64,000 nucleotides of DNA, taken from the sequence record OR896837.1; one strand, 5' to 3'. Within the stretch, counting starts at the first letter, position 1. Each line of letters opens with the position of its first letter. Below are positions 2,483 through 53,766 of the stretch, piece by piece. The notes below the pieces were generated by a model that was not told the DNA's origin, did not search any database, and saw only the letters and a program-made list of their open reading frames with translations. Both the position numbers and the translations under genes were made by a program. This stretch comes from Escherichia phage vB_Eco_mar004NP2.

Positions 2483-3023
2483 TACTTATCTCCATTCTTA
2501 GCTTTGAAAACTTATTATACCAAACTATATGATTATCGTCAATTACAAATTTATGGTAACATGCTGGTACGGTATAAGTTCCATAATCCGTGACACGCTG
2601 CACAACCTTGTGTGCGCACAGTCGACATCCATGACCTTCTAAATGAGATCTAGCAGTTTGCCAGTAATAACCATCGTGATCTGGACAATAGATCTCAACT
2701 TGCTGTTGCATTGTCTTATAATTTACACGCTCATACCCGAAGAAAGCTCCATGAGCTGCAACAGCTTTCTTGATAAATATAAGGTTTAGTGCTTCTTGTT
2801 GGAAGTCGGGATGTAGCTGCTTAATTTTAGTTCTATTAATAGATCCATCCGATTTGATGAACCTATTTATTGGAAAGTTGTTAGCTTCCTCGATTAATAA
2901 TTCATTTACTTTCTCTCTCATATTAAATAGTCTCACAGTTAAGGTAGAAACATTCGTAAGCATCCCCGGTAAACTCTTTATCTTGTAGTATACACTTAGC
3001 CTGGCCTTCGGGTACCCCCGCAT
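2475..3023 (-). CDS. hypothetical Cys/His-rich protein, possible Zn-binding nuclease-like fold
   Basis: CPDHDGYYW...HLEGHGCRLCAHK cluster; true start may be an internal Met. Confidence 0.35.
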   Translation of the reverse strand: MRGYPKARLSVYYKIKSLPGMLTNVSTLTVRLFNMREKVNELLIEEANNFPINRFIKSDGSINRTKIKQLHPDFQQEALNLIFIKKAVAAHGAFFGYERVNYKTMQQQVEIYCPDHDGYYWQTARSHLEGHGCRLCAHKVVQRVTDYGTYTVPACYHKFVIDDNHIVWYNKFSKLRMEISSE

Positions 3024-5263: not shown

Positions 5264-5532
5264 TATTTCTTACCTTTCAGTTGCTTAACTTCACGCTCAA
5301 AAGATGCTGCACGACGTTCGGCAGTTGCCTGATGCTCTTTAGCAAAACGTGCTTCTTGTTTTGCAAGGTTGAACGCCATAGCATTCTTATTCAGGGAATC
5401 GTACATCTTTTTCATTGCCGGAATAGACATCTTCATGAGCTGGCCTTCAAAACCCTGCATGTCGAGGAGAATTGCCAGAACGTTAGCCATTTCATTTTTA
5501 GTCATGTTTTCCATTAGAATTTCCTCTCTCAT
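5263..5532 (-). CDS. hypothetical protein (89 aa)
   Basis: ORF. Confidence 0.4.
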   Translation of the reverse strand: MREEILMENMTKNEMANVLAILLDMQGFEGQLMKMSIPAMKKMYDSLNKNAMAFNLAKQEARFAKEHQATAERRAASFEREVKQLKGKK

Positions 5533-5592
5533 TAATTTATGAACTTATTATACAGAATTTTAAGGCTTAAAGCAACTGAATTTTTTAATTAC

Positions 5593-6024: not shown

Positions 6025-6191
6025 TTTGATTCCTTCTCATCAATTTATAAAGTAATTATACAGAAACTTAGGCATTTTAGCAAATAAAACTTTCAATTAA
6101 AATGCCTAATCCTGTGCCAATAGTAATACAAATGATTATAAGTATTGCTATCGCCTGTATAATTCGTTTAATAATAACCTCAGCTATATAC

Positions 6192-8206: not shown

Positions 8207-8294
8207 TGGAATACCCCTATTTCTTGTAGTGTGTAGATAGCCTTTTCATCAATTTATATAAGTATTATACCAAAATTTTTAGCAAAAAGCAAGT

Positions 8295-8328
8295 AAAATA
8301 AAAGCCTGATCAGCTAAGATCAGGCTTT
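8295..8328 (-). terminator. rho-independent terminator candidate
   Basis: Perfect hairpin AAAGCCTGATC-AGCTAA-GATCAGGCTTT flanked by T/A runs. Confidence 0.55.
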
Positions 8329-9048: not shown

Positions 9049-9123
9049 AATATATACCTCTCTTAACTAATTTATGTATATATTATATAATAACTAGGGC
9101 TAAAAGTCAACTACTTTTTTATC

Positions 9124-15718: not shown

Positions 15719-15795
15719 TTCAAACCTCTCCCATCAATTTATATAAATATTATAACAAGAAATTAAGCATCAAGCAACTGCGTTTTTCTTGAAAT

Positions 15796-16225: not shown

Positions 16226-16600
16226 AATATTATTTCTTTAACCACAGCAAAGATAAGCCCAGCATACTAAAACCGCTAACTAATCCGATACATTTTTCTT
16301 CTATAGTAAAAGTATCTAGATTAAATGCTGTTATAGCTATTGGTATACACCATAATGCCATAAAAACTTGAGCTATCTTGTGTTTCATTTTGCTTTCCTT
16401 CTCTTCACTTTATAAAATATATTATACAGATAATAAAGCAGAATAGCAAATGAATTTTTAATAAATTTACTTATTGTGTAGGCCACCTGGAGGCTACCAA
16501 CCCCACGGCTGACAAAGAAGTTTGCGAGACCTCTCTTAAATGCCAGAATAGACCCGGCGGGTCTATCGGAACCTACATAATAAGTAAACTTTATAGTGTC

Positions 16601-17529: not shown

Positions 17530-17619
17530 TGGCGGAAGAAGTGGGAATCGAACCCACAAGGCTATATTTCAAACCGACAGATTAGCAATCTGCTGCAATA
17601 CCGTTATGCTATTCTTCCG
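17530..17619 (-). tRNA. tRNA-Ser (anticodon GCU)
   Basis: Acceptor GGAAGAA/TTCTTCC + G + CCA; loop TTGCTAA; long variable arm; perfect T-arm GTGGG-TTCGATT-CCCAC. Confidence 0.65.
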
Positions 17620-17638
17620 AATTTATAAATATATTATA

Positions 17639-18157
17639 TTAGAAATTTAGCTTCATAGCAAGAAAATTTTTCAAGTTTTCGGTAGACATCTCATCCACAT
17701 CTACAGGAGAAACAAATCCATTTAATTGTCTAGCAAATTTTTCACCAGCAGGATCATTATCCCCAACAGCTACCAATTTAAAAGGTAGTAATTTCAATTG
17801 CTTTAACAACGCTTTTCCGGGGGAAGAACCCAACATTGCCAGGGCTGGATAACCAGCGTTATGTAACGCAACTGCCTTAAATACAGATTCAGCAATCAAT
17901 ACTACTTTTTCGTCTCCATTGAGAGTTTCTAGTCCCCGTACACACTGTGTAGTAGAATAAGTAAAATATCTAGCTTCAAAGGGGCATTTACCATGACCTT
18001 TTGGAGCAGAAGGATTATAAGTCTGATAGCCTCTCAACATCCCAGAGAAGTCATACAATGGGACTGTTAGCCATCCTTCTGGGCTTAGCCAGCAGTGATA
18101 TTTATCTGTATCAAACCCTCTAGATAAGAGATGTTCTGTTAGTTCATCAACAGTCAT
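17639..18157 (-). CDS. Toprim-domain protein
   Basis: Conserved Glu in VVLIAESV and acidic cluster VAVGDNDPAGEKFA resemble the Toprim fold. Confidence 0.45.
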   Translation of the reverse strand: MTVDELTEHLLSRGFDTDKYHCWLSPEGWLTVPLYDFSGMLRGYQTYNPSAPKGHGKCPFEARYFTYSTTQCVRGLETLNGDEKVVLIAESVFKAVALHNAGYPALAMLGSSPGKALLKQLKLLPFKLVAVGDNDPAGEKFARQLNGFVSPVDVDEMSTENLKNFLAMKLNF

Positions 18158-19814: not shown

Positions 19815-19890
19815 TACCGACCGTAGGATTCGAACCTACATCTTCCACCAGTTACGGCTTGATAATACCAATTATACTAGGACGGCAGTG
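19815..19890 (-). ncRNA. tRNA-like element, possible tRNA pseudogene
   Basis: Perfect T-arm GTAGG-TTCGAAT-CCTAC and partial acceptor pairing; no anticodon stem could be folded; no CCA. Confidence 0.3.
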
Positions 19891-20161
19891 TTACTACATA
19901 AGTGATTTCCACACCCCACTATTTATAAATTAGAGAAGAGTTTAGGGGAGAGGTTTCAGACGCCTCATTTTACACGTTCTAGCCACTAACCGGGATTGCC
20001 GCCCCCTGTGTACTAGTTTTACAACTAACCCACCGACTCTATTCAACGAATCTTAGTGCTTGACGCATCTTACATTAAGACAAGTTCAGCGTAATCGGCT
20101 CGCTGTTCTCTAATTTATGAATATATTATACAGAATTTATAAGCATTTAGCAAATAAATTT

Positions 20162-20605
20162 TTAATTAAATTCGCCAGCAATCTGAGCAGCAGTACCACC
20201 ATCATAACGCCCAGGAAATTCTTCCTTAATCGCTTTCATTAGCATACCTTTTGTAATTCCAGGGTTTAGCTTAACTAATTCTGCAAAGTATTTACGAATC
20301 TCAGTATCAGATAACTGAGGAGGCAGATACTCCTGCAACCACTTATTTAGAATGTATTCATACTGAGCGGACTGCAAGCTATAACTATCAAGATCTTGAC
20401 CATGAAGTTTAGCTTTCATCTGGTTAATGCTTTTTAGTTGAGCTTTGAGATAAGACACAAATTGTTCAGAAGTGATGAAATCTTTATTAATACGCTGAAG
20501 ATCCCCGATTATGGTCTGATAGCTTTTAGCGACTTCTTTATCAGAACCATTAAACTTAGAATCCTGCAAAGCTCTACGCAAAACATCTAAAATATTCTCT
20601 TCCAT
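20162..20605 (-). CDS. GatB/YqeY-domain protein
   Basis: C-terminal GMLMKAIKEEFPGRYDGGTAAQI matches the YqeY/GatB C-terminal signature. Confidence 0.55.
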   Translation of the reverse strand: MEENILDVLRRALQDSKFNGSDKEVAKSYQTIIGDLQRINKDFITSEQFVSYLKAQLKSINQMKAKLHGQDLDSYSLQSAQYEYILNKWLQEYLPPQLSDTEIRKYFAELVKLNPGITKGMLMKAIKEEFPGRYDGGTAAQIAGEFN

Positions 20606-20843
20606 TATTTCATTCCTAACGCTTGGTTAAAAGATCGTTCTGTCATAACTGCTGAGACTTTGGCGAAATCAAACTTTTTAGGGTTCGTAGTGATCTCAGC
20701 AACGTTAGAAGTTTTAACAGTTTTCGTAGTACGAATACCGCGAGTGTTAACACCAATAATTACAACTGATTTCATATTTCGCTTCCTCTCATTAATTTAT
20801 GGAAGTATTATACTGAAATTTAAGTATTTAAGCAAGTAAATTT

Positions 20844-21311
20844 TTAAGTTTTAGTGACAACAGGTTTATAAAACGTATGTCCCTTAATCTTAGTTGTTTT
20901 CTTAAACTTCTTTGTCCAGTAAGGTTTATCTTTACCACTATGGAAGTATAGTGCTCCATGTGTAGGATCTTGTGGTAAATCAACGTAGTATATCACTCTA
21001 GCTAAATTCTTGGCGGTTTGCCAAGCCTCATCAGTTTTATCAACTTTTGGTCTCTTAGATACCCAAGAGAACTGGTTAGACTGATATACTACTTTACAGT
21101 AGGAATCTGGGAATTTACCGGAGTTTACACGGTTTTTAGTAACATGTGCAATCGCCGTCATTCCCTTTATGCCCTCACCACGACTTTCGAAATAGATATT
21201 TTTAGCAATGCAATCTATTTCTTTTGCATCGTGCGATGCCTGACTACTAAAGCTGAAGGTAAGGGCAGCTACTAAAAGCAAAGCTGCCTTCATTCTTTTT
21301 ACTCCTGCCAA
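20844..21311 (-). CDS. secreted cell-wall hydrolase (SleB-like)
   Basis: Signal peptide AALLLVAALTFSFSSQA; NIYFESRGE...VTKNR motif. Confidence 0.6.
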   Translation of the reverse strand: MAGVKRMKAALLLVAALTFSFSSQASHDAKEIDCIAKNIYFESRGEGIKGMTAIAHVTKNRVNSGKFPDSYCKVVYQSNQFSWVSKRPKVDKTDEAWQTAKNLARVIYYVDLPQDPTHGALYFHSGKDKPYWTKKFKKTTKIKGHTFYKPVVTKT

Positions 21312-21616: not shown

Positions 21617-21802
21617 AATAGCCTCGTTTCATCAATTTAAAAATATATTATACATATAATTTAGTGGATTAGCAAATACATTTTTAAATTGTGAAACTAG
21701 TAAACCGATAAACAGCCTAGAGGCGCCACAGGCCATATCTTATGAGCCATGTACCTTTGATCTAGGGTTTGAATCATCAACGAATACTTTGCATCTTTTA
21801 GC

Positions 21803-22933: not shown

Positions 22934-23003
22934 ATTTGTTTTCCTTTTATTGTTTTCTCAAATTTATGAATATATTATACAGAATTTTGGAGCCGGAAGC
23001 AAA

Positions 23004-23705
23004 TCAAATTTTCATTTTTTCGATCATAGCTGCAACACAATAACTCTCAACTAGGGCATCGAATGCTGGGTCGTGCTTAACCGGATAGATCCCATAACGA
23101 ATGGTGTCCATCTTCTCCATTTTAGCTATTGCCCAGCTAATACCTTCGGTCTCTAGAGCCTTATAACTGTATCCAGCTTGCATCCAGAGATTACGAAGAG
23201 ATCGAACATTACCCAAATTCCAGAATTTCCATGGAACTACCTCTTCATTGGTTCCAGCATGGAACGTGTTTGCAGAGTAGATAGTCATATCAAACTCTGG
23301 GCCATTGCCATAATACAAAGCATTTTCGCCTAGAGCCAACTCCATAATATTTTGAGCCATAGAGAAGGCAGCATAGTTTGAGCCTAATTTATTAGTGCAA
23401 TGATGTTTACCATTTTGGAAGGCAATCAGTTTTGTATTACGTTCCTTCATAGCTTCCATAATGTGGATAGCAGATGGGCTATTTTTAGCTTGATCCATCC
23501 AGAATGCTAGAGTAGATGCTGTAACTTTGGCACCAGAATTAAGCTGATCCTGCACATCCAAAGTAACAAATACTAGATCAGGGTCTTTATCAACCCCATG
23601 CATAGCCACAAAAGCGAAAGAAGGCATTACGATATGAGTAGTACCACAATCTCCTGGAGTTCCTAGAGATTCAATATCTAGCATACCAAATGGTTTTACT
23701 TTCAT
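23004..23705 (-). CDS. DEDDh-type 3'-5' exonuclease
   Basis: N-terminal FGMLDIESLG (DxE) and C-terminal HDPAFD motifs. Confidence 0.55.
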   Translation of the reverse strand: MKVKPFGMLDIESLGTPGDCGTTHIVMPSFAFVAMHGVDKDPDLVFVTLDVQDQLNSGAKVTASTLAFWMDQAKNSPSAIHIMEAMKERNTKLIAFQNGKHHCTNKLGSNYAAFSMAQNIMELALGENALYYGNGPEFDMTIYSANTFHAGTNEEVVPWKFWNLGNVRSLRNLWMQAGYSYKALETEGISWAIAKMEKMDTIRYGIYPVKHDPAFDALVESYCVAAMIEKMKI

Positions 23706-24807: not shown

Positions 24808-24890
24808 TATTTATTTTCCTTTTTGTTTATCAATTTATGAAGTATATTATACGAGAATTTGAAGCGTTTAGCAAATGAATTTTTTAAAAA

Positions 24891-25169: not shown

Positions 25170-25246
25170 AAAGCCCTCCTCACTTTCAATACGAATATTA
25201 TACTAAATTAGAGGGCTTTAAGCAAGAAAATTTTTTAATTTATTTA

Positions 25247-25992: not shown

Positions 25993-26288
25993 TAGTTTTC
26001 GCCTTCTATAATTACCCTAGTCGCTGGAGGAATTGGCGGCATAGGAGAAATACATGGTTGACCTCTCTGTGCATCATTTAGTACTCTTGGCGGTTCAGGT
26101 CTAATTGCCTTTAATTCCTTTTCTAGGAATTGTTCTAACGCCCGTTCTACAAAATGATCGAAAGGTAAGTGATAATACTGAGACAGAGCTAAGAACCTAC
26201 GTTCTTGACTTTGTGTTAAATAAACTTTCTTTTTAAATAGTCCCATAGTTGTCTCCGATTTATAAAATATATTATATCTAAATTTCAC
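25992..26288 (-). CDS. hypothetical protein (98 aa)
   Basis: ORF. Confidence 0.4.
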   Translation of the reverse strand: MKFRYNIFYKSETTMGLFKKKVYLTQSQERRFLALSQYYHLPFDHFVERALEQFLEKELKAIRPEPPRVLNDAQRGQPCISPMPPIPPATRVIIEGEN

Positions 26289-26338
26289 TCAGTAAGCAAA
26301 TGAAATTTAAATATAATAGCCCCGAAGGGCTATTTGAG

Positions 26339-28853: not shown

Positions 28854-28920
28854 TGATTTTCCTCTTTCTCACTATTTCAGGAATATTATAGCAAATCTGG
28901 TAGCGATTAGCAAGTAAAAT

Positions 28921-28951
28921 TTCAAAGAAAAAGGAGACCCGAAGATCTCCT
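28921..28951 (-). terminator. hairpin/attenuator between nrdA and nrdB
   Basis: AGGAGA-loop-TCTCCT hairpin with T-rich flanks on both strands. Confidence 0.4.
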
Positions 28952-32408: not shown

Positions 32409-32481
32409 AAATAACACTCCTATAGTGTACTTCGCTAACAGAGGATCAACAAAAAGATCTTGTTTATCAACTTACAAATAT

Positions 32482-32510
32482 ATTATACCAATATATACAG
32501 TAAAAAGCAA
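32482..32510 (-). promoter_or_regulatory. sigma70-like promoter reading leftward toward phoH
   Basis: Reverse complement gives TTGCTT, 17-bp spacer, TATAAT. Confidence 0.45.
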
Positions 32511-32622
32511 CTACAATTTTAAATAAGCCTATGATATTGCATTTAAATAAAAAATTTGCTTGCTTTTAACGTGAGATGTGTGATACTAGATAATCATTTT
32601 ATATCGCGTGTACGAGTGCGTG

Positions 32623-32651
32623 ATTATACAATTTTTAATAGAGATTGGCAA
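32623..32651 (-). promoter_or_regulatory. second leftward sigma70-like promoter
   Basis: Reverse complement TTGCCA, 17 bp, TATAAT. Confidence 0.4.
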
Positions 32652-32702
32652 ATAAAATTTTTTGACTCAGATCATGTTACAGAACTTTATAGTAAAATAT
32701 TG

Positions 32703-32731
32703 TTGACATCTGCCCTCGAATGAGTTATAAT
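32703..32731 (+). promoter_or_regulatory. consensus sigma70 promoter for nrdD
   Basis: TTGACA, 17-bp spacer, TATAAT, then GGAGAG RBS and ATG at 32761. Confidence 0.65.
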
Positions 32732-32760
32732 AGTAGTCTTAGTTATAGAAGGAGAGTATA

Positions 32761-34635
32761 ATGAATCGCAATGAAGAACTAAAGTATAAAGAAATGCAGG
32801 CGTTAATTAGAAACTGCAAAGAGATTATCGAAGGGTCAGCAGATGAAGAGCTGCTGTTTAATAATGCCAATAAACCCTCAGAACGTTTCCCTACACAAAG
32901 GGATATGCTTGCAGGTGAATTGAGTAAGTATCTGATTCTAGAAGAAATGCCAATTCAGATTCGAAATGCTCATATGATTGGGGATATTCATTTCCATGAT
33001 GCTGATTATGCTGCATTAGGCATGACTAACTGTTGCCTGGTAGCTCTGGAAGATATGTTGAAGAATGGTATGAAGGTTGGTAATGCTGAAATTAGCACTC
33101 CAAACTCTATCACTACTGCGGCGGCTATCACTGCTCAGATTATCACTCAAGTTAGCTCCCATCAGTATGGTGGTACTTCTGTAGATCGCCTTGATGAAGT
33201 ATTAGCACCTTATGTTCGTAAATCCTATGACAAAAATCATGCGTTTGCAAAACGTTGGACTAAGGATGAAGCCAAAGCATCCGTAATGGCTACGGAGATG
33301 ACTGAAAAAGAAGTCTATGACGCTTGTCAGGGTTTAGAATATGAAATCAATACCATGTTCAACTCTAATGGTCAGAGTCCGTTTATTACCTTTGGTTTTG
33401 GTCTAGGAACTTCTTGGGAAGCACGTCTAGTACAGAAAGCAATACTGAAAGTACGCATGGATGGTTTAGGTATCAATAAGCGTACAGCTATCTTCCCGAA
33501 ACTGGTATTTGTACTCCGTGATGGCGTTAACATGAAACCAGGAGATGTTAATTATGACATCAAGAAGTTAGCTATGAAATGTACTGCTGAACGTATGTAT
33601 CCAGATTATATCAGCTATGATAAGGTTGTGGAAGTTACTGGAGACTATAAAGTTTCTATGGGCTGCCGTTCATTCCTAGCTGCTACAGAAGATGGTGAAA
33701 CTGCCGGTCGTAATAACTTAGGTGTTGTTTCTGTAAACTTGCCTAGAATTGCTATCGAAGCTGAAGGAAATATTGACCTATTCTTTGATTTGCTTGAGCT
33801 ACGTGTGGATACAGCGTTAAAAGCATTGGAGTGGAGAGTTGATCGCTTAAAATACATCCAAGCTAAAGCTGCGCCCATCCTCTATATGTCAGGAGCCTTT
33901 GGACTGCGCTTGGAGCCTGATGAATATGTATTCGATCATTTCTATAACCGTGCTTCTGTATCTCTAGGGTATATTGGTTGCCATGAAATGCTACAGTTCA
34001 TGTTTGGCAAAGATGTAGACACAATGTCCGAGACCTGCATCAAGTTTGTTCAGCGTGTATTGCAGTACATGCGGGATAGAGTCGATCAGAAGAAGGAAGA
34101 AACTAAGTTAGGTTATAGCCTGTATGCTACACCATCAGAATCCCTATGTGACCGTTTTTGTCGTCTAGACCGCGAATATTTCCCGGAGCATGAAGATATT
34201 CTGTCTAAAGGATACTACACTAACTCGCACCACCTTGATGTAGAACGTAAGGTTGCTCCCAATGTGAAATTTGATTATGAATCTAACTTTACGCCTATTG
34301 CTTCTGGTGGGTGCATTTCCTATGTAGAACTACCAGATATGAAACGATTCCCAGATGCACTGGAATGGGTTATTAATTATGCTGCTAGTAAAGTTCATTA
34401 CTTCGGTATTAATACTCCAGTGGATTCTTGCGGTAAATGTGGATTCTTAGGTGAAACAGTAGCATCCGAAGATGGGTTTAAGTGCCCTATCTGTGGTAAT
34501 CATGATCCCGAAACTCTTGAAGTAACTCGCCGAGTTTGTGGGTATCTTGGAAATCCAGGTGCTCGTCCATTTAACCCTGGTAAACAGCACGAGGTTATGG
34601 GCAGGGTGAAACATCAGGATATTCGAGCTAAATAA
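32761..34635 (+). CDS. nrdD: anaerobic ribonucleoside-triphosphate reductase
   Basis: C-terminal glycyl-radical motif RVCGYLGNP; Zn-ribbon cysteines CGKCG...CPICG. Confidence 0.9.
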   Translation: MNRNEELKYKEMQALIRNCKEIIEGSADEELLFNNANKPSERFPTQRDMLAGELSKYLILEEMPIQIRNAHMIGDIHFHDADYAALGMTNCCLVALEDMLKNGMKVGNAEISTPNSITTAAAITAQIITQVSSHQYGGTSVDRLDEVLAPYVRKSYDKNHAFAKRWTKDEAKASVMATEMTEKEVYDACQGLEYEINTMFNSNGQSPFITFGFGLGTSWEARLVQKAILKVRMDGLGINKRTAIFPKLVFVLRDGVNMKPGDVNYDIKKLAMKCTAERMYPDYISYDKVVEVTGDYKVSMGCRSFLAATEDGETAGRNNLGVVSVNLPRIAIEAEGNIDLFFDLLELRVDTALKALEWRVDRLKYIQAKAAPILYMSGAFGLRLEPDEYVFDHFYNRASVSLGYIGCHEMLQFMFGKDVDTMSETCIKFVQRVLQYMRDRVDQKKEETKLGYSLYATPSESLCDRFCRLDREYFPEHEDILSKGYYTNSHHLDVERKVAPNVKFDYESNFTPIASGGCISYVELPDMKRFPDALEWVINYAASKVHYFGINTPVDSCGKCGFLGETVASEDGFKCPICGNHDPETLEVTRRVCGYLGNPGARPFNPGKQHEVMGRVKHQDIRAK

Positions 34636-34642
34636 GCTAATC

Positions 34643-34679
34643 AGCCGGGTTGCTAGTCGACCTGGCTTTTATTTTATTT
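34643..34679 (+). terminator. rho-independent terminator after nrdD
   Basis: GC hairpin (AGCCGGG...CCTGGCT) followed by TTTTATTTTATTT. Confidence 0.5.
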
Positions 34680-34706
34680 GCTTTCAGCCAAAAATTTATG
34701 TATAAT
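34678..34706 (+). promoter_or_regulatory. sigma70-like promoter
   Basis: TTGCTT, 17 bp, TATAAT, followed by the conserved ATAAATTTGAGAGGAG leader. Confidence 0.55.
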
Positions 34707-34734
34707 TGATTTATAAATTTGAGAGGAGAAAGCT

Positions 34735-37580: not shown

Positions 37581-37671
37581 TTTTTACTAGCTGAACTCTG
37601 ATTACCGAGTCATTTTGGCTCGGTTTTCTCTGTACTCAAAGACACTGATAGCACCTTTGGGAAAAATTTAC

Positions 37672-37700
37672 TTGCACGGTGCTCAAAATCTTGATATAAT
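37672..37700 (+). promoter_or_regulatory. sigma70-like promoter at start of a 0.6-kb non-coding region
   Basis: TTGCAC, 17 bp, TATAAT. Confidence 0.55.
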
Positions 37701-38199
37701 ATTTATATTGAATTGAGAGACATTAGTAAAAATTGATTTTGCTAATTTTTCTTGTTTACAATCCGCGATACGGAACAGTTAGGCTGCCCCATTAAGGGTT
37801 GTTTTAACTGTTACGTGTTAGTTTTTAAACAAATAGTTAATAGAATACTTAGCGATCTGCGTCCCGTAGGAACCCTGGTAAGGCCTCGAAGCAACCTAGA
37901 TAGAGGTGGTTGTGAAGTGAGACGGGAGGAGTGAAAAACTCCGAGACGTGATTCTGTAAGTTATATTGCATCTAGTATGAGCTAGTATATGAAGCATTAG
38001 GTGAGCAAATCTGGCTTAGCGGCCATCCTCAAGGATTTGTGCGGTATAGCAAAGCAGCAGCGCAGCGTGAAAGTGGAAGTTGCCACCCCACTTCAGTATT
38101 TGCGATTAATTTGTTGAGAAATTGACAGTAACAGTTGTTCTATTCTTTCTGAATAGTCCTAAAGAAAACTTATTTCATTTCCAACACAGGAGTATTGTT

Positions 38200-40989: not shown

Positions 40990-41206
40990 AAAATGGGAAA
41001 CAAGGAAGTTCCCAGTAAAAGAGCGTAAAGTTCCTGTTTACGATACTTCGGAAAAGCTATGTAGGGTGGTTCCTGCTAGATTAGCTGGCATCCCTAACAT
41101 ATCCGAGTGGTTACTTAAACAACGGAAAACAAACGTGTCTCTTCGCATCGGCTTTGAATTAGATAAAGTCTATGCTGAACTTGCTTCTTTGCTCAAGGAA
41201 TCGTAA
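40973..41206 (+). CDS. hypothetical small protein
   Basis: ORF overlapping end of preceding gene. Confidence 0.35.
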   Translation: MTVKNKKWETRKFPVKERKVPVYDTSEKLCRVVPARLAGIPNISEWLLKQRKTNVSLRIGFELDKVYAELASLLKES

Positions 41207-41214
41207 AAATTTAT

Positions 41215-41243
41215 TTGCATAGTGCAAAAAATTTCTGTATAAT
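41215..41243 (+). promoter_or_regulatory. sigma70-like promoter
   Basis: TTGCAT, 17 bp, TATAAT, then ATAAATTTGAGAGAGGAG leader. Confidence 0.55.
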
Positions 41244-41274
41244 AGATTCATAAATTTGAGAGAGGAGTTTAAAT

Positions 41275-41979
41275 ATGGCTGGTTCTCGTAGAAAGAAACA
41301 TATCCATGAAATCCCGGATGAAGTCTTTAAAAAGGTTATAGAGCATCTGGAGAACGGTGGTACTAAGAAAGCAGCATGTGAAATGCTCGGCGTATCATCT
41401 AATCCAACTATGGAAAGAATGATTGAAGAATGGCAAGACCGCCAGATTCAAGTTGCCGAAATGAAGAAAAAGAAACGTGGCACACTCATTGAAGGCATTG
41501 AGTTAGCTAACGTTATTGAGCAGTATTTATCTGGTGATTCTTTTGAAGAAATTGCCGATCGTAATTACCGCTCTGTAGCAATGGTTAAATCTGTTCTGGA
41601 ACGATATGGTGCTCTACTTCGTTTGAACGATATTGTAGATCCATTGAATCCTCCAATTATTCCTGATGATGCTGTAGCAGAAGAATTTGCAGTTGGTGAG
41701 CTTGTTTGGGTTCCTGGATACCAGTGTATCGGTGAAATCAAAAAAGCAATGGATAATCCTGTTGGTTGTTACCGTGTATGGCTTCTATCGGAAGGCAAAC
41801 AACAGAACGTCCATTATATGAATTACGAGTTGGCCTCTGTTAAGCATCTAGAAAAGTTAGGGGTTGACGTAAAATCTCTAGGGTACAAGTGGACTCGTGA
41901 AGAAATTATTACGTTGATTAACGAAGCTGTTAAGGCCGCCCTGAAGCTTGATAAAGAAAAAGGAAAACGCCGTGAGTAA
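41275..41979 (+). CDS. putative HTH DNA-binding protein
   Basis: N-terminal GGTKKAACEMLGVSSNPTMERMIEEW helix-turn-helix-like segment. Confidence 0.45.
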   Translation: MAGSRRKKHIHEIPDEVFKKVIEHLENGGTKKAACEMLGVSSNPTMERMIEEWQDRQIQVAEMKKKKRGTLIEGIELANVIEQYLSGDSFEEIADRNYRSVAMVKSVLERYGALLRLNDIVDPLNPPIIPDDAVAEEFAVGELVWVPGYQCIGEIKKAMDNPVGCYRVWLLSEGKQQNVHYMNYELASVKHLEKLGVDVKSLGYKWTREEIITLINEAVKAALKLDKEKGKRRE

Positions 41980-42235
41980 GCTAACAGATTTGCTTAAAGA
42001 TGGAGATGTAAAATATCTCCAGCGGGATAGCTGGGGTAATTGGGACGCTCGTACTTATTACTCTACTATTATAAAAGTAGATGTTGATAATAATGATATT
42101 GTCGAGTTTACCTGGTGGCTCAATGAAGGTGGGTATACCAAGTTCGATATAAAAGACGCAACATGGAAAACCTCCTCCCTAACCCTAGAAGAAGCTCTGG
42201 CGGATGATTGGGAGATCGTTGAGCTAGATGTGTAG
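41971..42235 (+). CDS. hypothetical protein
   Basis: ORF; probable GTG start after AAAAAGGAAAA. Confidence 0.4.
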
Positions 42236-42256
42236 CAATTACAGAAAAAATTTCAG

Positions 42257-42285
42257 TTGCTTAATCCTATAATTCTTGATATAAT
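42257..42285 (+). promoter_or_regulatory. sigma70-like promoter
   Basis: TTGCTT, 17 bp, TATAAT. Confidence 0.5.
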
Positions 42286-42342
42286 ATTCTCATAGTTTGA
42301 AAGAACTATTCTGTTTAATTATTAATTAAGGAAATATAAAAT

Positions 42343-43136: not shown

Positions 43137-43445
43137 ATGAGCGAACAGGTAAATCAAAACTATGAAGGACACGTTGATGACCAGTCCATCATACTCTGGG
43201 AGAAGGAGGGAGAACAAGTAAGATTAACAGTATCTGAATTTCGTGGGAATCTATACATGGGTATTCGTTACTGGCTTCTTGATATTAATGATGAATGGTT
43301 TCCAACGAAATCTGGCTTCTCTTTTCCTTACACCCTAGAAACAACATCGCAGCTTTTCTATGCGTTTACACAGATTCTTAGCGAATCTGAGGTTTTACAT
43401 GAAGTACAGAAACGAGCTGAAGAACTCAAAGCCAAGAATGCCTAG
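43137..43445 (+). CDS. hypothetical protein (102 aa)
   Basis: ORF. Confidence 0.45.
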   Translation: MSEQVNQNYEGHVDDQSIILWEKEGEQVRLTVSEFRGNLYMGIRYWLLDINDEWFPTKSGFSFPYTLETTSQLFYAFTQILSESEVLHEVQKRAEELKAKNA

Positions 43446-43472
43446 TTCTTGGCTTTTTCTTTATAAATGTAT

Positions 43473-43501
43473 TTGCTTTCAACTCAGTTTTGTTATATAA
43501 T
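43473..43501 (+). promoter_or_regulatory. sigma70-like promoter
   Basis: TTGCTT, 17 bp, TATAAT. Confidence 0.55.
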
Positions 43502-43532
43502 ATTTATATAAATTAATGAGAGATACAAATAA

Positions 43533-44504: not shown

Positions 44505-44554
44505 TACATAACCCTTTGCTACCCATCTACCATATCGGAATTATAAAGTGGTTA

Positions 44555-44583
44555 TTGACATTTTCGCCGCTTAGGTATATACT
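44555..44583 (+). promoter_or_regulatory. sigma70-like promoter in ligase intergenic region
   Basis: TTGACA, 17 bp, TATACT. Confidence 0.5.
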
Positions 44584-44646
44584 ATTATCATTCAGTTGAG
44601 GGATAGAAAGTTATGGCGAGGGTAAGCAAAGTTAGTTAAAATTGTA

Positions 44647-44676
44647 GTTGCTAAATGCTTAAATACTTGCTATAAT
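44647..44676 (+). promoter_or_regulatory. sigma70-like promoter
   Basis: TTGCTA, 18 bp, TATAAT. Confidence 0.45.
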
Positions 44677-44703
44677 ATTTATATAAATTGATAAGGAAGA
44701 AAT

Positions 44704-47802: not shown

Positions 47803-48689
47803 GTAGAATAACAGAACTACTTGATCTGAAAGGCATTGAGTATAAAGACACAGGTGGGGACATCCTCATCTGTTGTCTCAATCCAGATCATGACGATAAA
47901 CATCCAAGTTTGCGTATTGATCCTGAAACAGGTATTATGCACTGCTTGAGTTGTGGCTTCGGTAAAGGTATACCGAGCATTTACCATTATTTTAATGAGA
48001 CTCAGTACCGACAGTCTCCAAGACTATCGCAGGTACGTAAAAAGATTTCAGAGATTAGGAATGGATCTACGAATCTTGCAATTCCTGAATCTGCTTACCT
48101 TTTCGAAGGTGATTTCCGAGGTATAAGTTCTAAGACCTTGAAGAAATATTTTGCTTTCCAACACCAAGCAGATTGGGAGGGCAGAATTGTATTCCCAATC
48201 ACAGATGCTGTTGGACGCAATATCCTATTTTTGGGTCGTTCTATAAACAGTTCTGCCCCTCCTAAATACTTAGTAAAACCAAAACAAGTTTCACCACCGA
48301 TTTTCCCTGTACGATATAATACTCCAGTTCTTATTCTAGTTGAAGGTATCTTTGATATGCTGAACCTAGAGGATAATGGTATAGACTATGCTTCTTGCTG
48401 CTTTGGTACACATCAGTTTACTTCGGATAACATTGCAGATAAGTTCAGTCCTTATATTATTGCTGGTGTAAAAGTTGTTGTTATCTTACTAGATAATGAT
48501 GCTTCTGGTAATAAAACTGCACAAGCATTGGCTAAGCTAATTCGTACAAAAACGCGTTTAACACCTGTAGTTGCTAACTTTCTCCTACCTGAAGGCAAAG
48601 ATCCAGGTGATTTAAACAAAGATGAAATTGATATGTTAGCAAAACGTATTGAAATTTTAGTTGCTGAATCGCTTAAAGATTTGGTATAA
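47799..48689 (+). CDS. DNA primase (DnaG-like)
   Basis: Zn-finger CLNPDHDDKHPSLRIDPETGIMHCLSCG; Toprim EGIFDMLNL...DNDASG. Confidence 0.75.
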   Translation: MSRITELLDLKGIEYKDTGGDILICCLNPDHDDKHPSLRIDPETGIMHCLSCGFGKGIPSIYHYFNETQYRQSPRLSQVRKKISEIRNGSTNLAIPESAYLFEGDFRGISSKTLKKYFAFQHQADWEGRIVFPITDAVGRNILFLGRSINSSAPPKYLVKPKQVSPPIFPVRYNTPVLILVEGIFDMLNLEDNGIDYASCCFGTHQFTSDNIADKFSPYIIAGVKVVVILLDNDASGNKTAQALAKLIRTKTRLTPVVANFLLPEGKDPGDLNKDEIDMLAKRIEILVAESLKDLV

Positions 48690-48715
48690 TAGTCCTAAAT
48701 AACTGAGGAGCTACT

Positions 48716-49045
48716 ATGGAATATGTATATATTTATGCGGATGTTCCAGTGTATGATAGTGTAACACACAAAGAGGTTAAACTAGAGCGGTTTACAACAC
48801 TGGAGTCCCTTAATAAACGAAAGAATTTCCATTTATTTGGTGATCCTAAATTACCTGCATCTTATATTTACTTTAAAGTAAAAGATACAGGTCAAGAGGT
48901 ATACCTAACATATGATTGGGCTGTTGTAGAAAATACTGAGCAATCTATGAAAGCGCTAGATGCTTTTCTGCGTATAGATGAAGAATTTCGGGTACTAGAA
49001 AAGCAGCGCAATGAAATGCGTAAATTACTTCACACCTATAAATAG
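48716..49045 (+). CDS. hypothetical protein (109 aa)
   Basis: ORF with RBS GAGGAG. Confidence 0.45.
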   Translation: MEYVYIYADVPVYDSVTHKEVKLERFTTLESLNKRKNFHLFGDPKLPASYIYFKVKDTGQEVYLTYDWAVVENTEQSMKALDAFLRIDEEFRVLEKQRNEMRKLLHTYK

Positions 49046-49048
49046 TAT

Positions 49049-49077
49049 TTGCTATTATCCCAATATTTTGATATAAT
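49049..49077 (+). promoter_or_regulatory. sigma70-like promoter upstream of DNA polymerase
   Basis: TTGCTA, 17 bp, TATAAT. Confidence 0.55.
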
Positions 49078-49138
49078 ATATTGGTAAGTTAGAGAAGAAA
49101 CACTGAAGTTATACTTACTTACCAAGAGGAGATTAAAT

Positions 49139-52196: not shown

Positions 52197-53545
52197 AGGT
52201 TGTTATATCTAATAAAGCCTATTTCAAGCCCGATGATGAACTTTGGGATTATTGTAGTAAGCAAACCACTTATCACATTGAGACAATGACTAGTAAATAC
52301 CCTATTATGTATAAGAATAGTGGTGTTGTTGCCAAAGAGATTAAGTGGATTCCTATTACGCGTCTGGACTTACTAGATGCTAAAGGAGTAAAATACGAAT
52401 TAGTCGATAAACGCACATTAGCTCCGGTAGATATACCAAAACCTAAGTTCAAGCTGCGTGAAGAAGACCAGCTCCCAATATATGAAGAGTGTGATGATAC
52501 CTGTATTATTAATGGTAAGCCTGGATTTGGCAAAACTATCCTAGCCCTTGCACTTGCGTATAAATTTGGCCAGAAAACTCTGGTAATTTGTACTAACACA
52601 TCTATTCGTGAGATGTGGGCAGCAGAAGTTCGTAAATGGTTTGGATTTGAGCCAGGTATTATAGGTTCTGGGAAATACAATATTGATCCACCAATTGTAG
52701 TCAGTAATATTCAAACAGTGAATAAACATGCGAATAATCTTTCTAAAGTATTCGGTACTGTTATAGTTGATGAAGTTCACCATTGTGTGGCTACAACTTT
52801 CATTAACTTCCTAGAAATATCATGTGCTCGCTATAAGATTGGGCTATCTGGAACATTAAAACGTAAAGATGGTCTACAAGTTATGCTCAAAGATTTCTTT
52901 GGATATAAGATCTTTAGCCCACCGGTTAATAATACTGTTGCACCTACAATCCACAGGTACTCCGTACCAGTTGAGTTGTCTGGAAACCAAAACGTACCGT
53001 GGGCATTACGTGCTAATGATGTGTATAATCATCCTGAATATCGAGAAACTATTATAAACCTAGCACATTTATATGTGAATATGGGACATAAAGTACTCAT
53101 TGTAAGTGATAGAACAGAGTTAATCCAAACAGTACTAGAAGCTCTTGCACAACGTGGTGTTACAACATATGAAATTATAGGGTCAACTCACTTGGATGAC
53201 CGATTAAAAATTCAGGAAGATATAGCAAAAGGTGGGCCTTGTGTACTTGCAGCAGCTCAAAGTATCTTCTCTGAAGGTATTTCCCTTAATGAGCTGTCTT
53301 GTTTAATAATGGGAAGCCTCATTAATAATGAATCTCTCATTGAACAGCTTGCAGGACGTGTTCAACGTATTGTCGATGGTAAACTCGACCCTATTGTTGT
53401 AGATCTAATTATGAAAGGTGGCACTGGACTAAGGCAGGCTTCTGGACGTATGGCAGTATATCATAACAATGGGTGGAAAACTATTACCATGACTCCTGAG
53501 AAAGCAGTTCAATTAGCTAAAATTGCATTTGGCAACAGCTCATAA
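52193..53545 (+). CDS. SF2 DNA helicase
   Basis: Walker A GKPGFGKT, Walker B VIVDEVHH, C-terminal helicase domain. Confidence 0.75.
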   Translation: MKVVISNKAYFKPDDELWDYCSKQTTYHIETMTSKYPIMYKNSGVVAKEIKWIPITRLDLLDAKGVKYELVDKRTLAPVDIPKPKFKLREEDQLPIYEECDDTCIINGKPGFGKTILALALAYKFGQKTLVICTNTSIREMWAAEVRKWFGFEPGIIGSGKYNIDPPIVVSNIQTVNKHANNLSKVFGTVIVDEVHHCVATTFINFLEISCARYKIGLSGTLKRKDGLQVMLKDFFGYKIFSPPVNNTVAPTIHRYSVPVELSGNQNVPWALRANDVYNHPEYRETIINLAHLYVNMGHKVLIVSDRTELIQTVLEALAQRGVTTYEIIGSTHLDDRLKIQEDIAKGGPCVLAAAQSIFSEGISLNELSCLIMGSLINNESLIEQLAGRVQRIVDGKLDPIVVDLIMKGGTGLRQASGRMAVYHNNGWKTITMTPEKAVQLAKIAFGNSS

Positions 53546-53558
53546 ATGATGTATAATA
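53530..53558 (+). promoter_or_regulatory. sigma70-like promoter
   Basis: TTGGCA, 17 bp, TATAAT, then conserved ATAAATTTGAGAGAGA leader. Confidence 0.45.
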
Positions 53559-53629
53559 ATATACATAAATTTGAGAGAGAAAGTTTCGGATTGATAAGAA
53601 AGTCCGAAGCAGAAAAATAAAAATTTTAG

Positions 53630-53659
53630 TTGCTAAATTCTCTCGAAATCTAGTATAAT
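53630..53659 (+). promoter_or_regulatory. sigma70-like promoter
   Basis: TTGCTA, 18 bp, TATAAT. Confidence 0.45.
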
Positions 53660-53766
53660 ATATACATAAATTCGAGGAGAAAACAAAAATTAAATTCTTC
53701 GATTATGAAAAGCTATACTTACTAGCTAGAGGAAATTCCGACCTAATTATTAAGTTATTCAAAAGA

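What the first reader, a model, noticed from the sequence alone, without database searches (positions are those of the whole stretch)
34707..34734. Conserved promoter-leader cassette reused in front of many rightward early genes
A near-identical leader (TATAAT, then ATAAATTTGAGAGAGGAG-like RBS region) recurs at about 34707, 41244, 43502, 44677, 53559 and 53660, each after a sigma70-consensus promoter. This gives a set of strong, similarly organised transcription units; the shared leader may carry a common regulatory or RNA-processing site.
Basis: seen in the sequence. Interest (0 to 1): 0.4.

Follow-up and report, generated by a model that had tools for sequence, protein, structure and literature searches.

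The report
Phage T5-type early promoter cassettes

Summary
All six cited sites carry TTGCxx, a 17-18 bp spacer, TATAAT, a 6-7 nt AT-rich discriminator, then ATAAATT and a purine-rich stretch. The window is a T5-like phage, 100% identical to Escherichia phage vB_Eco_mar004NP2 over the 1.2 kb compared.

I found 31 TTGNNN-N16-18-TATAAT sites, 11 rightward and 20 leftward. Thirty map onto promoters annotated in T5's GenBank record (P-N25, P-N26, P-K28a, P31A/B, P-H207 and others). Sixteen have exact ATAAATT 6-7 nt after the -10, against about 0.02 expected by chance.

Published numbering of P-N25 puts the A of ATAAATT at +1, so the 'leader' is the initial transcribed sequence, followed by a ribosome-binding site. 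For N25, changing +3..+20 lowers productive transcription about 10-fold. The consensus, including '+1 TAAATT', is already published for a T5-like phage.

No support was found for an RNA-processing site. The leaders are unstructured, match no Rfam family, and the motif also precedes a tRNA and non-coding stretches.

Side observation: promoter cores coincide with insertion/deletion junctions between T5-like genomes, which resembles the PeSL cassettes of T4-type phages.

Novelty: already known. Interest: low.

The parts
34666..34732 (+). Cited copy 1. Early promoter cassette: terminator tail/UP-like stretch, -35 TTGCTT (34678-34683), -10 TATAAT (34701-34706), discriminator TGATTT, +1 at 34713 with ATAAATT, Shine-Dalgarno GAGAGGAG, ATG at 34735 (70-aa ORF).
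   Evidence: maps onto the T5 annotated promoter at 55708-55782. A terminator hairpin at 34643-34667 lies directly upstream.
41203..41269 (+). Cited copy 2. Ortholog of T5 P-N25 in front of the D2 gene: -35 TTGCAT, -10 at 41238-41243, +1 at 41250, ATAAATTTGAGAGAGGAGTT, ATG at 41275.
   Evidence: identical to T5 from the -10 to +20; T5 feature 'promoter P-N 25'
43461..43527 (+). Cited copy 3. Promoter in front of DNA ligase subunit A: -10 at 43496, +1 at 43508, ATAAATTAATGAGAG, ATG at 43533.
   Evidence: T5 promoter 65284-65358. A terminator hairpin at 43428-43456 lies directly upstream.
44636..44702 (+). Cited copy 4. Ortholog of T5 P-K28a in front of ligase subunit B: -35 TTGCTA, -10 at 44671, +1 at 44683, ATAAATTGATAAGGAAG, ATG at 44707.
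53517..53584 (+). Cited copy 5. Ortholog of T5 P31A: -35 TTGGCA, -10 at 53552, 7-nt discriminator, +1 at 53565, ATAAATTTGAGAGAGAAAG. No ORF follows; a hairpin at 53585-53608 comes next, then P31B.
53618..53685 (+). Cited copy 6. Ortholog of T5 P31B: -35 TTGCTA, 18-bp spacer, -10 at 53654, +1 at 53666, ATAAATTCGAGGAG.
32691..32757 (+). nrdD promoter. Perfect TTGACA-17-TATAAT, but the transcribed start is a variant (CTTAGTT).
37660..37726 (+). Promoter with variant start ATTGAAT, followed by about 490 nt without an ORF before the origin-binding protein gene.
42245..42311 (+). Ortholog of T5 P-N26 (D3 gene), with variant start ATAGTTT.
44543..44609 (+). Ortholog of T5 P-K28b: TTGACA-17-TATACT with a non-cassette transcribed start.
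48649..48716 (+). Upstream half of the T5 pol promoter, joined at TATAATA to a different leader and a 109-aa ORF.
49037..49103 (+). A different promoter upstream half, joined at TATAATA to the downstream half of the T5 pol promoter (GTAAGTTAGAGAAG), in front of the DNA polymerase gene.
5521..5587 (-). Minus-strand copy with exact ATAAATT; +1 at 5540.
   Evidence: T5 promoter 16245-16319
6029..6095 (-). Minus-strand copy with exact ATAAATT; +1 at 6048 (T5 P-F30 position).
8238..8304 (-). Minus-strand copy with exact ATAAATT; +1 at 8257. The terminator at 8328-8301 abuts it. No nearby ORF start.
9056..9122 (-). Minus-strand copy: -35 TTGACT, exact ATAAATT, +1 at 9075.
15723..15789 (-). Minus-strand copy with exact ATAAATT; +1 at 15742. 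It is a chimera: the upstream half of T5 P13b joined to the downstream region of the T5 promoter at 26722-26796.
16394..16461 (-). Ortholog of T5 P13a, start ATAAAGT (1 mismatch).
17607..17673 (-). Ortholog of T5 P15b with exact ATAAATT; +1 at 17626. The tRNA-Ser gene starts 8 nt downstream (17618), and there is no ribosome-binding site.
20099..20165 (-). Ortholog of T5 P16-17 with exact ATAAATT; +1 at 20118. Non-coding sequence follows.
20781..20847 (-). Ortholog of T5 P-D/E33 with exact ATAAATT; +1 at 20800.
21621..21687 (-). Copy with start TTAAATT (1 mismatch).
22948..23014 (-). Copy with exact ATAAATTTGAGA; +1 at 22967.
24819..24886 (-). Ortholog of T5 P-H207 with exact ATAAATT; +1 at 24838.
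26244..26311 (-). Copy with start ATAAATC (1 mismatch); +1 at 26263.
2488..2554 (-). Same promoter type (TTGACG-17-TATAAT) with a non-cassette transcribed start. Further sites of this kind: 10684-10750, 25171-25237, 28859-28925, 32456-32522 and 32597-32663, all on the minus strand. 13603-13667 (-) has a -10 of TATAAC.

Best explanation
The window is the early region of a T5-like phage (Demerecviridae, Tequintavirus). The repeated element is the T5-type early promoter, read by host sigma70 RNA polymerase.

Each cassette has these parts:
- an A-tract near -45..-41 that looks like an UP element
- a -35 hexamer TTGCTw
- a 17-bp spacer
- a -10 hexamer TATAAT(A)
- a 6-7 nt AT-rich discriminator
- a start at A(+1) of ATAAATT
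- a purine-rich, C-poor +8..+20 stretch that usually contains the Shine-Dalgarno sequence
- a start codon at about +23..+27

So the 'leader' is mostly the initial transcribed sequence of the promoter. The AT-rich +1..+7 and purine-rich +8..+20 let a very tightly bound polymerase escape the promoter efficiently. The same bases give an unstructured, A/U-rich 5' end with a strong ribosome-binding site.

What is shown and what is inferred:
- Shown here: the sequence architecture, the statistics, orthology to T5's annotated promoters, purifying selection, and conservation across subfamilies.
- Shown in the literature for T5: promoter activity, +1 at the A, and the effect of the transcribed region on escape for P-N25.
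- Inferred: that the other copies behave like N25.
For: Identity of the window: 100% identical over 1.2 kb to phage vB_Eco_mar004NP2, and 483 T5-like records match.

Orthology: the T5 GenBank record AY543070 annotates 75-bp promoter features, and 30 of the window's 31 sites map onto them. The P-N25 ortholog is identical to T5 from the -10 to +20. Aligning 46 annotated T5 promoters gives the same consensus, including TAAATT.

Statistics: 16 of 31 sites carry exact ATAAATT, P about 6e-45. Positions +8..+20 are 79% purine against 53% background, and +1..+20 are 6% C against 17%; 0 of 5000 random draws reach either value.

Purifying selection: divergence from T5 and Salmonella phage 3-29 orthologs is 3.6% at +1..+7 against 10.8% in the spacer, Fisher p = 4.6e-4.

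Breadth: the same architecture occurs in Klebsiella GZ8, Pectobacterium My1 and Vibrio Cilsick, and more weakly in Vibrio D42.

Not a ribosome-binding site: the motif is kept before tRNA-Ser and before non-coding stretches.

Literature:
- +1 position: N25 -12..+2 = TATAATAGATTCAT (PMC7472727).
- Replacing N25 +3..+20 gives about 10-fold less full-length RNA, and the AT-rich/purine-rich ITS favours escape (PMC12464699).
- Published consensus for a T5-like phage: TTGCTw, TATAATA, -43 AAAAATT, +1 TAAATT (PMC3326045).
Against: - No transcription data exist for this phage. Start sites are carried over from T5 P-N25.
- Only 16-19 of 31 promoters carry ATAAATT. The others (GTAAGTT, ATAGTTT, ATTGAAT, CTTAGTT) are presumably active too, so the heptamer is not required for promoter function.
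- The purine-richness of +8..+20 is confounded with the Shine-Dalgarno sequence.
- Divergence at +1..+7 is not significantly lower than in the adjacent coding sequence (3.6% against 6.3%, p = 0.09).
- Why this exact heptamer is kept, rather than any AT-rich start, is not explained by the escape data, which tested only a wholesale +3..+20 swap.
Confidence: 0.88

Rival explanations
1. The discriminator plus ATAAATT is the cis-element that marks promoters as 'early'. It would be read by a phage factor (for example gpT5.026 bound to RNA polymerase, D5, or an unknown protein) to time shut-off of early transcription. This does not exclude the main explanation.
For: In T5, exact ATAAATT at +1 occurs only at promoters in the early region and at the llp promoter. 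None of the 3 pre-early or 2 late annotated promoters has it.

Klimuk et al. report that early and late promoters differ mainly in the discriminator. They also report that gpT5.026 weakens polymerase binding to the -5/+2 non-template segment, and that early transcripts rise about 5-fold without it (PMC7472727).

The motif is under purifying selection and is conserved across subfamilies.
Against: - Only two late promoters are known, so the contrast is thin.
- About 40% of early-region promoters lack the heptamer.
- gpT5.026 has no strong effect in vitro and is non-essential.
- No factor that binds this DNA or RNA sequence is known.
- N25 is fully active with host polymerase alone.
Confidence: 0.2
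2. The conserved segment is mainly a translation signal: an unstructured A/U-rich 5' end (ribosomal protein S1 binding) plus a strong Shine-Dalgarno sequence at a fixed distance, selected for efficient translation of early mRNAs.
For: - Leaders are short and fairly uniform, 17-34 nt and mostly 21-27 nt, with GAGG/GGAG 5-10 nt before the start codon.
- They are mostly unstructured.
- +8..+20 is purine-rich.
Against: ATAAATT and the purine-rich stretch are kept where no coding sequence follows: 8 nt before tRNA-Ser (17626), before non-coding sequence (20118), and at P31A (53565).

Conservation runs continuously into the untranscribed discriminator and -10.

The N25 +3..+20 effect was measured on RNA synthesis in vitro (PMC12464699).
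Confidence: 0.2
3. The shared leader is an RNA-level site: an RNase E or RNase III processing site, or a binding site for a small RNA or protein, common to early transcripts.
For: The sequence is transcribed and A/U-rich, as RNase E sites are. In read-through transcripts from upstream promoters it would be internal.
Against: - In promoter-initiated transcripts it is the 5' terminus, so nothing lies upstream to be cut off.
- There is no conserved secondary structure.
- No Rfam family matches apart from tRNAs.
- Terminators often precede the cassettes, which limits read-through.
Confidence: 0.05
4. The cassettes stay similar partly because they act as patches of homology for recombination. Gene modules are inserted, deleted or swapped promoter-to-promoter, as with the PeSL cassettes of T4-type phages. 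This is an added role, not an alternative to promoter function.
For: - The pol promoter is split exactly at the shared TATAATA by a 387-bp leader-ORF-promoter module. Outgroups GZ8 and My1 lack it, so it is an insertion.
- The promoter at 15754 is a chimera of two T5 promoters that lie 5.27 kb apart and share a 31-nt identical core.
- A terminator is fused to the -10 at 18189-18231.
- 11 of 42 window-versus-T5 alignment ends lie within -50..+20 of a promoter, against 1.6 expected.
- Terminator-promoter composites occur at 8269, 28890, 34701 and 43496.
Against: - Module boundaries have to be intergenic anyway, and the null used was uniform over the sequence.
- Similarity between paralogous promoters lets BLAST alignments run into a cassette.
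- Many indels are homing-endonuclease genes unrelated to promoters.
- Only three junctions are clean.
- The 109-aa ORF was found at one place per genome, so movement between loci is not shown.
Confidence: 0.45

Closest known systems
Bacteriophage T5 early promoters (P-N25, P-N26, P-K28a/b, P-H207, P-D/E33, P31A/B and others; Gentz & Bujard 1985; annotated in GenBank AY543070)
   Same: Positional orthologs for 30 of 31 sites. Same consensus: A-tract near -43, TTGCTw, 17 bp, TATAATA, AT-rich discriminator, +1 ATAAATT. The P-N25 copy is identical from the -10 to +20.
   Different: Small sequence differences; for example the -35 of the N25 ortholog is TTGCAT rather than TTGCTT. The pol promoter is split by an inserted ORF module, one promoter is a chimera of two T5 promoters, and the window lacks the T5 promoters that lie in segments absent from this genome.
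Promoter consensus published for T5-like phage AKFV33 (Niu et al. 2012, PMC3326045)
   Same: The paper reports 32 promoters with TTGCTw, TATAATA, a 17-18 bp spacer, a -43 AAAAATT region and a '+1 region (TAAATT)'. That is the cassette seen here, including the transcribed part.
   Different: That paper gives a logo only. It does not analyse the copies in front of tRNAs, selection on the transcribed part, or distribution across subfamilies.
N25 downstream sequence region / initial transcribed sequence (Kammerer et al. 1986; Hsu and co-workers)
   Same: The copy at 41250 is that very sequence. The other copies share +1..+7 and the purine-rich, C-poor character that those studies link to efficient promoter escape.
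   Different: Function has been tested only for N25, and only by swapping the whole +3..+20 stretch. Nothing is known about the heptamer itself or about the natural variants.
PeSL (promoter-early stem-loop) mobile regulatory cassettes of T4-type phages (Arbiol et al. 2010, PMC2839356; Comeau et al. 2014, PMC4122927)
   Same: Conserved early promoters, sometimes fused to a terminator hairpin, lie at the junctions of insertions, deletions and replacements between closely related phages.
   Different: A different phage family and a different promoter sequence. Only 4-6 of 31 cassettes here are terminator-promoter composites. Recombination at the cassettes is inferred from a few junctions and has not been surveyed.

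Membership tests
T5-type early sigma70 promoter | -35 hexamer TTGCTw, 17-18 bp spacer, -10 TATAAT(A) | tested here: met
   21 of 31 sites have TTGCT[AT], and 27 of 31 have a 17-bp spacer. Note that TTG and TATAAT were the selection criteria, so only the rest of the hexamer and the spacer length are independent.
T5-type early sigma70 promoter | A-rich block around -43 | tested here: met
   0.7-1.3 bits at -45..-42 in the profile built without reference to it. Consensus AAAAaTttA.
T5-type early sigma70 promoter | AT-rich discriminator and +1 region TAAATT | tested here: met
   16 of 31 exact ATAAATT and 19 of 31 with at most 1 mismatch, 6-7 nt after the -10, against about 0.02 expected.
T5-type early sigma70 promoter | Positional orthology to promoters mapped or annotated in T5 | tested here: met
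   30 of 31 sites map onto promoter features of AY543070, including the named P-N25, P-N26, P-K28a, P31A, P31B, P-H207, P-D/E33, P16-17, P15b, P13a and P-F30. P-K28b is also present as a TATACT variant outside the 31-site set.
T5-type early sigma70 promoter | Transcription by host RNA polymerase starting at the predicted +1, early in infection | not testable with these tools
   Known for T5 only: 19 promoters mapped in vitro, 11 confirmed by primer extension in vivo (PMC7472727).
N25-type initial transcribed sequence (DSR) that promotes escape | Lies at +1..+20 of the promoter and has the N25 sequence or its AT-rich/purine-rich, C-poor character | tested here: met
   The copy at 41250 matches T5 N25 20 of 20. 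Across all copies, +8..+20 is 79% purine and +1..+20 is 6% C.
N25-type initial transcribed sequence (DSR) that promotes escape | Changing it alters the abortive/productive ratio or promoter strength | not testable with these tools
   Literature covers N25 only (PMC12464699).
Structured or processed leader RNA | Conserved secondary structure, or a match to a described RNA family | tested here: not met
   17 leaders folded: minimum free energy 0 to -9.9 kcal/mol, z-scores -1.7 to +1.8 except the P31A hairpin, and the 5' AUAA always unpaired. Rfam gathering search finds tRNAs only.
PeSL-like mobile regulatory cassette | Composite of a terminator stem-loop and an early promoter | tested here: inconclusive
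   A terminator abuts the promoter at 8269, 28890, 34701 and 43496, and lies nearby at 10715 and 37695. Most copies have none.
PeSL-like mobile regulatory cassette | Indel or replacement junctions between related genomes fall inside the cassette | tested here: inconclusive
   Three clean junctions, and 11 of 42 alignment ends within -50..+20 against 1.6 expected under a uniform null. No null restricted to intergenic junctions was run.
sigma70-dependent promoter-proximal pause element | [quoted passage not shown] | tested here: inconclusive
   TAAATT at +2..+7 matches TATAAT at 4 of 6 positions, including A2 and T6 (read from the sequence). No paper in the library links N25 to such pausing. Pausing itself cannot be tested here.

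The most novel reading that the evidence does not exclude
The -6..+7 segment (AT-rich discriminator plus ATAAATT) is more than a strength or escape element. It is the class-specific signal that lets the phage time its early genes. One route would be polymerase modified by gpT5.026 or another phage factor. Another would be sigma70 re-binding the -10-like TAAATT at +2..+7.

This would explain three things: why this exact heptamer, rather than any AT-rich start, is kept from Escherichia to Vibrio phages; why it is kept before tRNA genes; and why it is absent from the known pre-early and late promoters.
Probability: 0.15. Interest if true: 0.5.

Novelty: already known. Interest (0 to 1): 0.12.

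Why it matters
For the finding as given, very little. These are the classic T5 early promoters. P-N25 has been a model for promoter strength and escape since the 1980s and is the basis of common expression vectors.

Two things may be worth a specialist's attention.

First, how T5 switches between temporal classes is still unknown. The early-specific, strongly conserved -6..+7 segment is an obvious candidate cis-element, and it could be tested by simple swaps.

Second, promoter cores coincide with insertion and deletion junctions. This suggests that T5-like phages shuffle small genes promoter-to-promoter, as T4-type phages do with PeSLs.

Tried and rejected
- Generic sigma70 scans: the number of promoter-like sites is no higher than in shuffled sequence (61 vs 57.6, 57 vs 54.2, 53 vs 59.6, 40 vs 47). 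They cannot pick these promoters out; the extra elements of the cassette are what make it specific.
- First information profile: it was anchored on TATAAT and ATAAAT, the two elements I had selected on. I redid it with selection on -35/-10 only and a fixed register.
- First ortholog comparison: ungapped pairing on the downstream sequence mis-registered pairs that had indels. I replaced it with gapped blastn alignments.
- Alignable orthologs in Klebsiella GZ8 and Pectobacterium My1: only one spanning alignment each, too diverged. I used them only for architecture and as outgroups.
- Primary papers: Gentz & Bujard 1985 (PMC214212), Kammerer 1986 (PMC1167252) and Hsu 2006 (PMC2528282) are not held. 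Their content is cited second-hand or from memory and marked as such.
- Literature on promoter-mediated deletions in T5, and on sigma-dependent pausing at N25: nothing relevant found.
- The 109-aa ORF inserted at the pol promoter: no Pfam match, a PHROG of unknown function, and found at one place per genome in 50 records. There is no evidence that it moves between loci.
- The 620-bp non-coding stretch at 37581-38199: no notable repeats.

Full report
**What is at the cited coordinates.** I read all six sites. Each cited coordinate is the base just after a TATAAT hexamer (34701, 41238, 43496, 44671, 53552, 53654). Upstream of each hexamer lie a 17-18 bp spacer and a TTGCxx or TTGGCA -35 hexamer. 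Downstream lie 6-7 AT-rich bases, then ATAAATT, then a purine-rich stretch that usually contains GAGG or GGAG. The interval 34707-34734 runs exactly from the discriminator to the base before the ATG at 34735. It has 2-3 mismatches at 53565 and 34713 (4 hits against 0.13 expected). The strictly shared part is ATAAATT.

**Is it more than chance, and how many copies are there?** A first pattern search found the element on both strands. To avoid selecting on the motif itself, I picked sites by TTGNNN-N16-18-TATAAT alone. That gives 31 sites: 11 on the plus strand (32.7-53.7 kb) and 20 on the minus strand (2.5-32.6 kb). Their orientation follows the gene orientation suggested by the GC skew.
- Sixteen of the 31 carry exact ATAAATT starting 6-7 nt after the -10, and 19 have at most one mismatch.
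- None of the other 70 TATAAT hexamers in the window has it.
- About 0.02 such sites are expected by chance, and binomial P is about 6e-45.
- An unbiased repeat search recovers the cassette as the dominant dispersed repeat: families of 13, 10, 12, 5 and 5 copies, and the longest inverted pairs.
- A position profile built without reference to the downstream motif shows information at -45..-42 (A-tract), at the -35 TTGCT, at -6, at +2..+7 and at +11..+13.

Generic sigma70 scans, by contrast, find no more sites than in shuffled sequence.

**What the window is.** The stretch 40800-42000 is 100% identical to Escherichia phage vB_Eco_mar004NP2 (Demerecviridae, Tequintavirus), and 483 T5-like records match it. 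T5's own GenBank record (AY543070) annotates 75-bp promoter features throughout the early region, several with their classical names. Mapping the window onto T5 by blastn places 30 of the 31 sites on such features:
- 41238 = P-N25
- 42280 = P-N26
- 44671 = P-K28a, with P-K28b at 44555
- 48685 and 49072 = the pol promoter
- 53552 = P31A and 53654 = P31B
- 24851 = P-H207
- 20812 = P-D/E33
- 20130 = P16-17
- 17638 = P15b
- 16426 = P13a
- 6060 = P-F30

The P-N25 ortholog is identical to T5 from the -10 hexamer through +20. An alignment of T5's 46 annotated promoters gives the consensus AAAAATTTAnTTGCTnA...TTTTnGTATAATATnTTTATAAATTnAnGAG.

**What the 'leader' is.** Klimuk et al. give TATAATAGATTCAT as positions -12 to +2 of the N25 non-template strand (PMC7472727). 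The A of ATAAATT is therefore +1, and the conserved segment is the initial transcribed sequence rather than an upstream leader element.

Where a gene follows, the start codon lies 17-34 nt from +1, mostly 21-27 nt, with a Shine-Dalgarno sequence in the purine-rich +9..+18. But the heptamer and the purine-rich stretch are also kept in three places with no coding sequence behind them:
- at 17626, 8 nt before the tRNA-Ser gene
- at 20118, before non-coding sequence
- at 53565 (P31A), before a hairpin and the next promoter

So the segment is not simply a ribosome-binding site. Across 30 sites, +8..+20 is 79% purine against 53% for the sense strand generally. C makes up 6% of +1..+20 against 17%. 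Neither value was reached in 5000 random draws.

**Evidence for function.** In gapped alignments with orthologous promoters of T5 (22 pairs) and Salmonella phage 3-29 (14 pairs), divergence was:

| Segment | vs T5 | vs 3-29 |
|---|---|---|
| -10 hexamer | 0.8% | 0% |
| -35 hexamer | 3.0% | 4.8% |
| +1..+7 | 3.9% | 3.1% |
| spacer | 8.6% | 14.3% |

Pooled, +1..+7 diverges 3.6% against 10.8% for the spacer, Fisher p = 4.6e-4. The contrast with the adjacent coding sequence (6.3%) is not significant, p = 0.09.

The same architecture, with an A-start ATAAA(T/G)T, occurs in Klebsiella phage GZ8 (Sugarlandvirus), Pectobacterium phage My1 (Mccorquodalevirinae) and Vibrio phage Cilsick (Ermolyevavirinae). 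It is weaker (A.AAA.T) in Vibrio phage D42, whose polymerase is only 49% identical. A scan of IMG/VR for TTGCT-N18-TATAAT-N6-ATAAATT returns mostly multi-copy hits on contigs of 103-128 kb, the size of T5-like genomes.

In T5, exact ATAAATT at +1 is confined to the early region and the llp promoter. The three pre-early and two late annotated promoters lack it.

**Mechanism from the literature.** N25 forms an extremely stable open complex and is rate-limited at promoter escape. Replacing +3..+20 (the 'antiDSR' construct) cuts full-length RNA about 10-fold and lengthens the escape half-time from about 3 to about 45 min. The AT-rich, purine-rich native sequence is well accommodated during scrunching, and native N25 has no C before +30 (Kammerer 1986, as summarised by Hsu & Han 2025, PMC12464699).

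Niu et al. 2012 describe 32 promoters in the T5-like phage AKFV33, with TTGCTw, TATAATA, a -43 AAAAATT region and a '+1 region (TAAATT)' (PMC3326045). The cassette, including its transcribed part, is therefore already in print. From memory only, because the paper is not held: Gentz & Bujard 1985 also noted homology in the early transcribed region.

**Rivals.**
- RNA-processing or structured-RNA element: not supported. Seventeen leaders fold weakly (z-scores -1.7 to +1.8), with the 5' AUAA always unpaired. The one exception is the P31A hairpin at 53585-53608 (z = -3.8). Rfam finds only tRNAs.
- Purely translational role: contradicted by the copies before the tRNA and non-coding sequence, though +8..+20 surely doubles as the ribosome-binding site.
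- Class-specific regulatory role for -6..+7: open. Klimuk et al. find that early and late promoters differ mainly in the discriminator. They also find that gpT5.026 weakens polymerase binding to -5/+2, and that early transcripts rise about 5-fold without it. However, about 40% of early-region promoters lack the heptamer and only two late promoters are known.
- Sigma70-dependent pausing: TAAATT at +2..+7 is also -10-like (4 of 6, with A2 and T6), so this is conceivable. I found no literature on it for N25.

**Side result: promoter cores as recombination junctions.**
- *Pol promoter.* T5's single pol promoter is split in the window exactly at the shared GGTATAATA. Its upstream half, with its unique spacer, is at 48649-48691. 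A new leader, a 109-aa ORF and a different promoter upstream half follow. The pol promoter's downstream half then resumes at 49078. GZ8 and My1 have no gene between primase and polymerase, so this is an insertion. The ORF is of unknown function and occurs once each in 50 T5-like records.
- *Chimeric promoter.* The promoter at 15754 is a chimera. Its upstream half is T5 P13b, with one mismatch. Its downstream region is that of the T5 promoter at 26722-26796. The two T5 promoters lie 5.27 kb apart in direct orientation and share a 31-nt identical core, and the window lacks what lies between them.
- *Terminator fusion.* At 18189-18231 a terminator is fused directly to the -10 of the P15a ortholog, next to a 1.9-kb difference from T5.
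- *Overall.* 11 of 42 window-versus-T5 alignment ends lie within -50..+20 of a promoter, against 1.6 expected under a uniform null.

This resembles the PeSL cassettes of T4-type phages (PMC4122927). The null does not correct for the fact that module boundaries must be intergenic, and only three junctions are clean, so I report it as a lead.

**Verdict.** The element is the already described T5-type early promoter. Interest is low.

Noticed in passing
window 48649-49103: T5's single DNA polymerase promoter is split exactly at the shared TATAATA. The insert is a 387-bp module: a new leader, a 109-aa ORF of unknown function (phrog_35630), and a different promoter upstream half. Outgroup phages GZ8 and My1 lack it, so it is an insertion. 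It is present once each in 50 T5-like records.
   Followed up: yes
window 15660-15800 (minus strand); T5 L003 26661-26801 and 31940-32080: The promoter at 15754 is a chimera of two T5 promoters, P13b and the one at 26722-26796. They share a 31-nt identical core and lie 5.27 kb apart in T5. The window lacks the intervening tRNA-rich segment, as expected from promoter-to-promoter recombination.
   Followed up: partly
window 18189-18231 (minus strand): A strong terminator hairpin is fused directly to the TATAAT of the P15a ortholog, replacing its -35 and UP region. The window lacks 1.9 kb that T5 has at this point.
   Followed up: partly
window 1-59455 versus T5: 11 of 42 blastn alignment ends lie within -50..+20 of a promoter, against 1.6 expected under a uniform null. 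Several sit at +1 or +8..+10, just after the conserved transcribed segment (8248, 20107, 26263, 28878, 34723). Five other differences are T5 HNH homing-endonuclease genes absent from the window.
   Followed up: partly
window 53585-53608: A stable hairpin (-9.9 kcal/mol, z = -3.8) in the short transcript from P31A, between the tandem promoters P31A and P31B. No ORF follows P31A.
   Followed up: no
window 37581-38199: About 620 bp without an ORF, between the promoter at 37695 (start ATTGAAT) and the origin-binding protein gene. T5 has the same long untranslated stretch, and part of it (37866-38126) is too diverged from T5 to align. No notable repeats were found. It may be a long leader, a non-coding RNA or a replication element.
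   Followed up: partly
window 17220-17291, 17449-17523, 19815-19886 (minus strand): Rfam's tRNA model finds 8 tRNA-like genes where ARAGORN reports 5. The three extra ones score 35-40 bits and may be degenerate or tRNA-like RNAs of the kind annotated in T5.
   Followed up: no
window 32456-32757: A divergent promoter cluster between phoH (leftward) and nrdD (rightward), with three promoters within 300 bp. One is a perfect 12/12 TTGACA-17-TATAAT that lacks the ATAAATT start.
   Followed up: no
window 63243-63475: Tandem 21-nt repeats (4 or more units) inside the late-region gene on the minus strand, in the tail-fibre region, which is also highly diverged from T5.
   Followed up: no
window 33938-34082: A 143-bp stretch inside nrdD has no counterpart in T5, whose nrdD product is 575 aa against 624 aa here.
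   Followed up: no
L005 (Klebsiella GZ8), L006 (Pectobacterium My1), L007 (Vibrio Cilsick), L008 (Vibrio D42): The whole promoter architecture is conserved across Demerecviridae subfamilies with different hosts: the A-tract, TTGC, 17 bp, TATAAT, and an A-start ATAAA(T/G)T. It weakens to A.AAA.T in the most distant Vibrio phage.
   Followed up: partly
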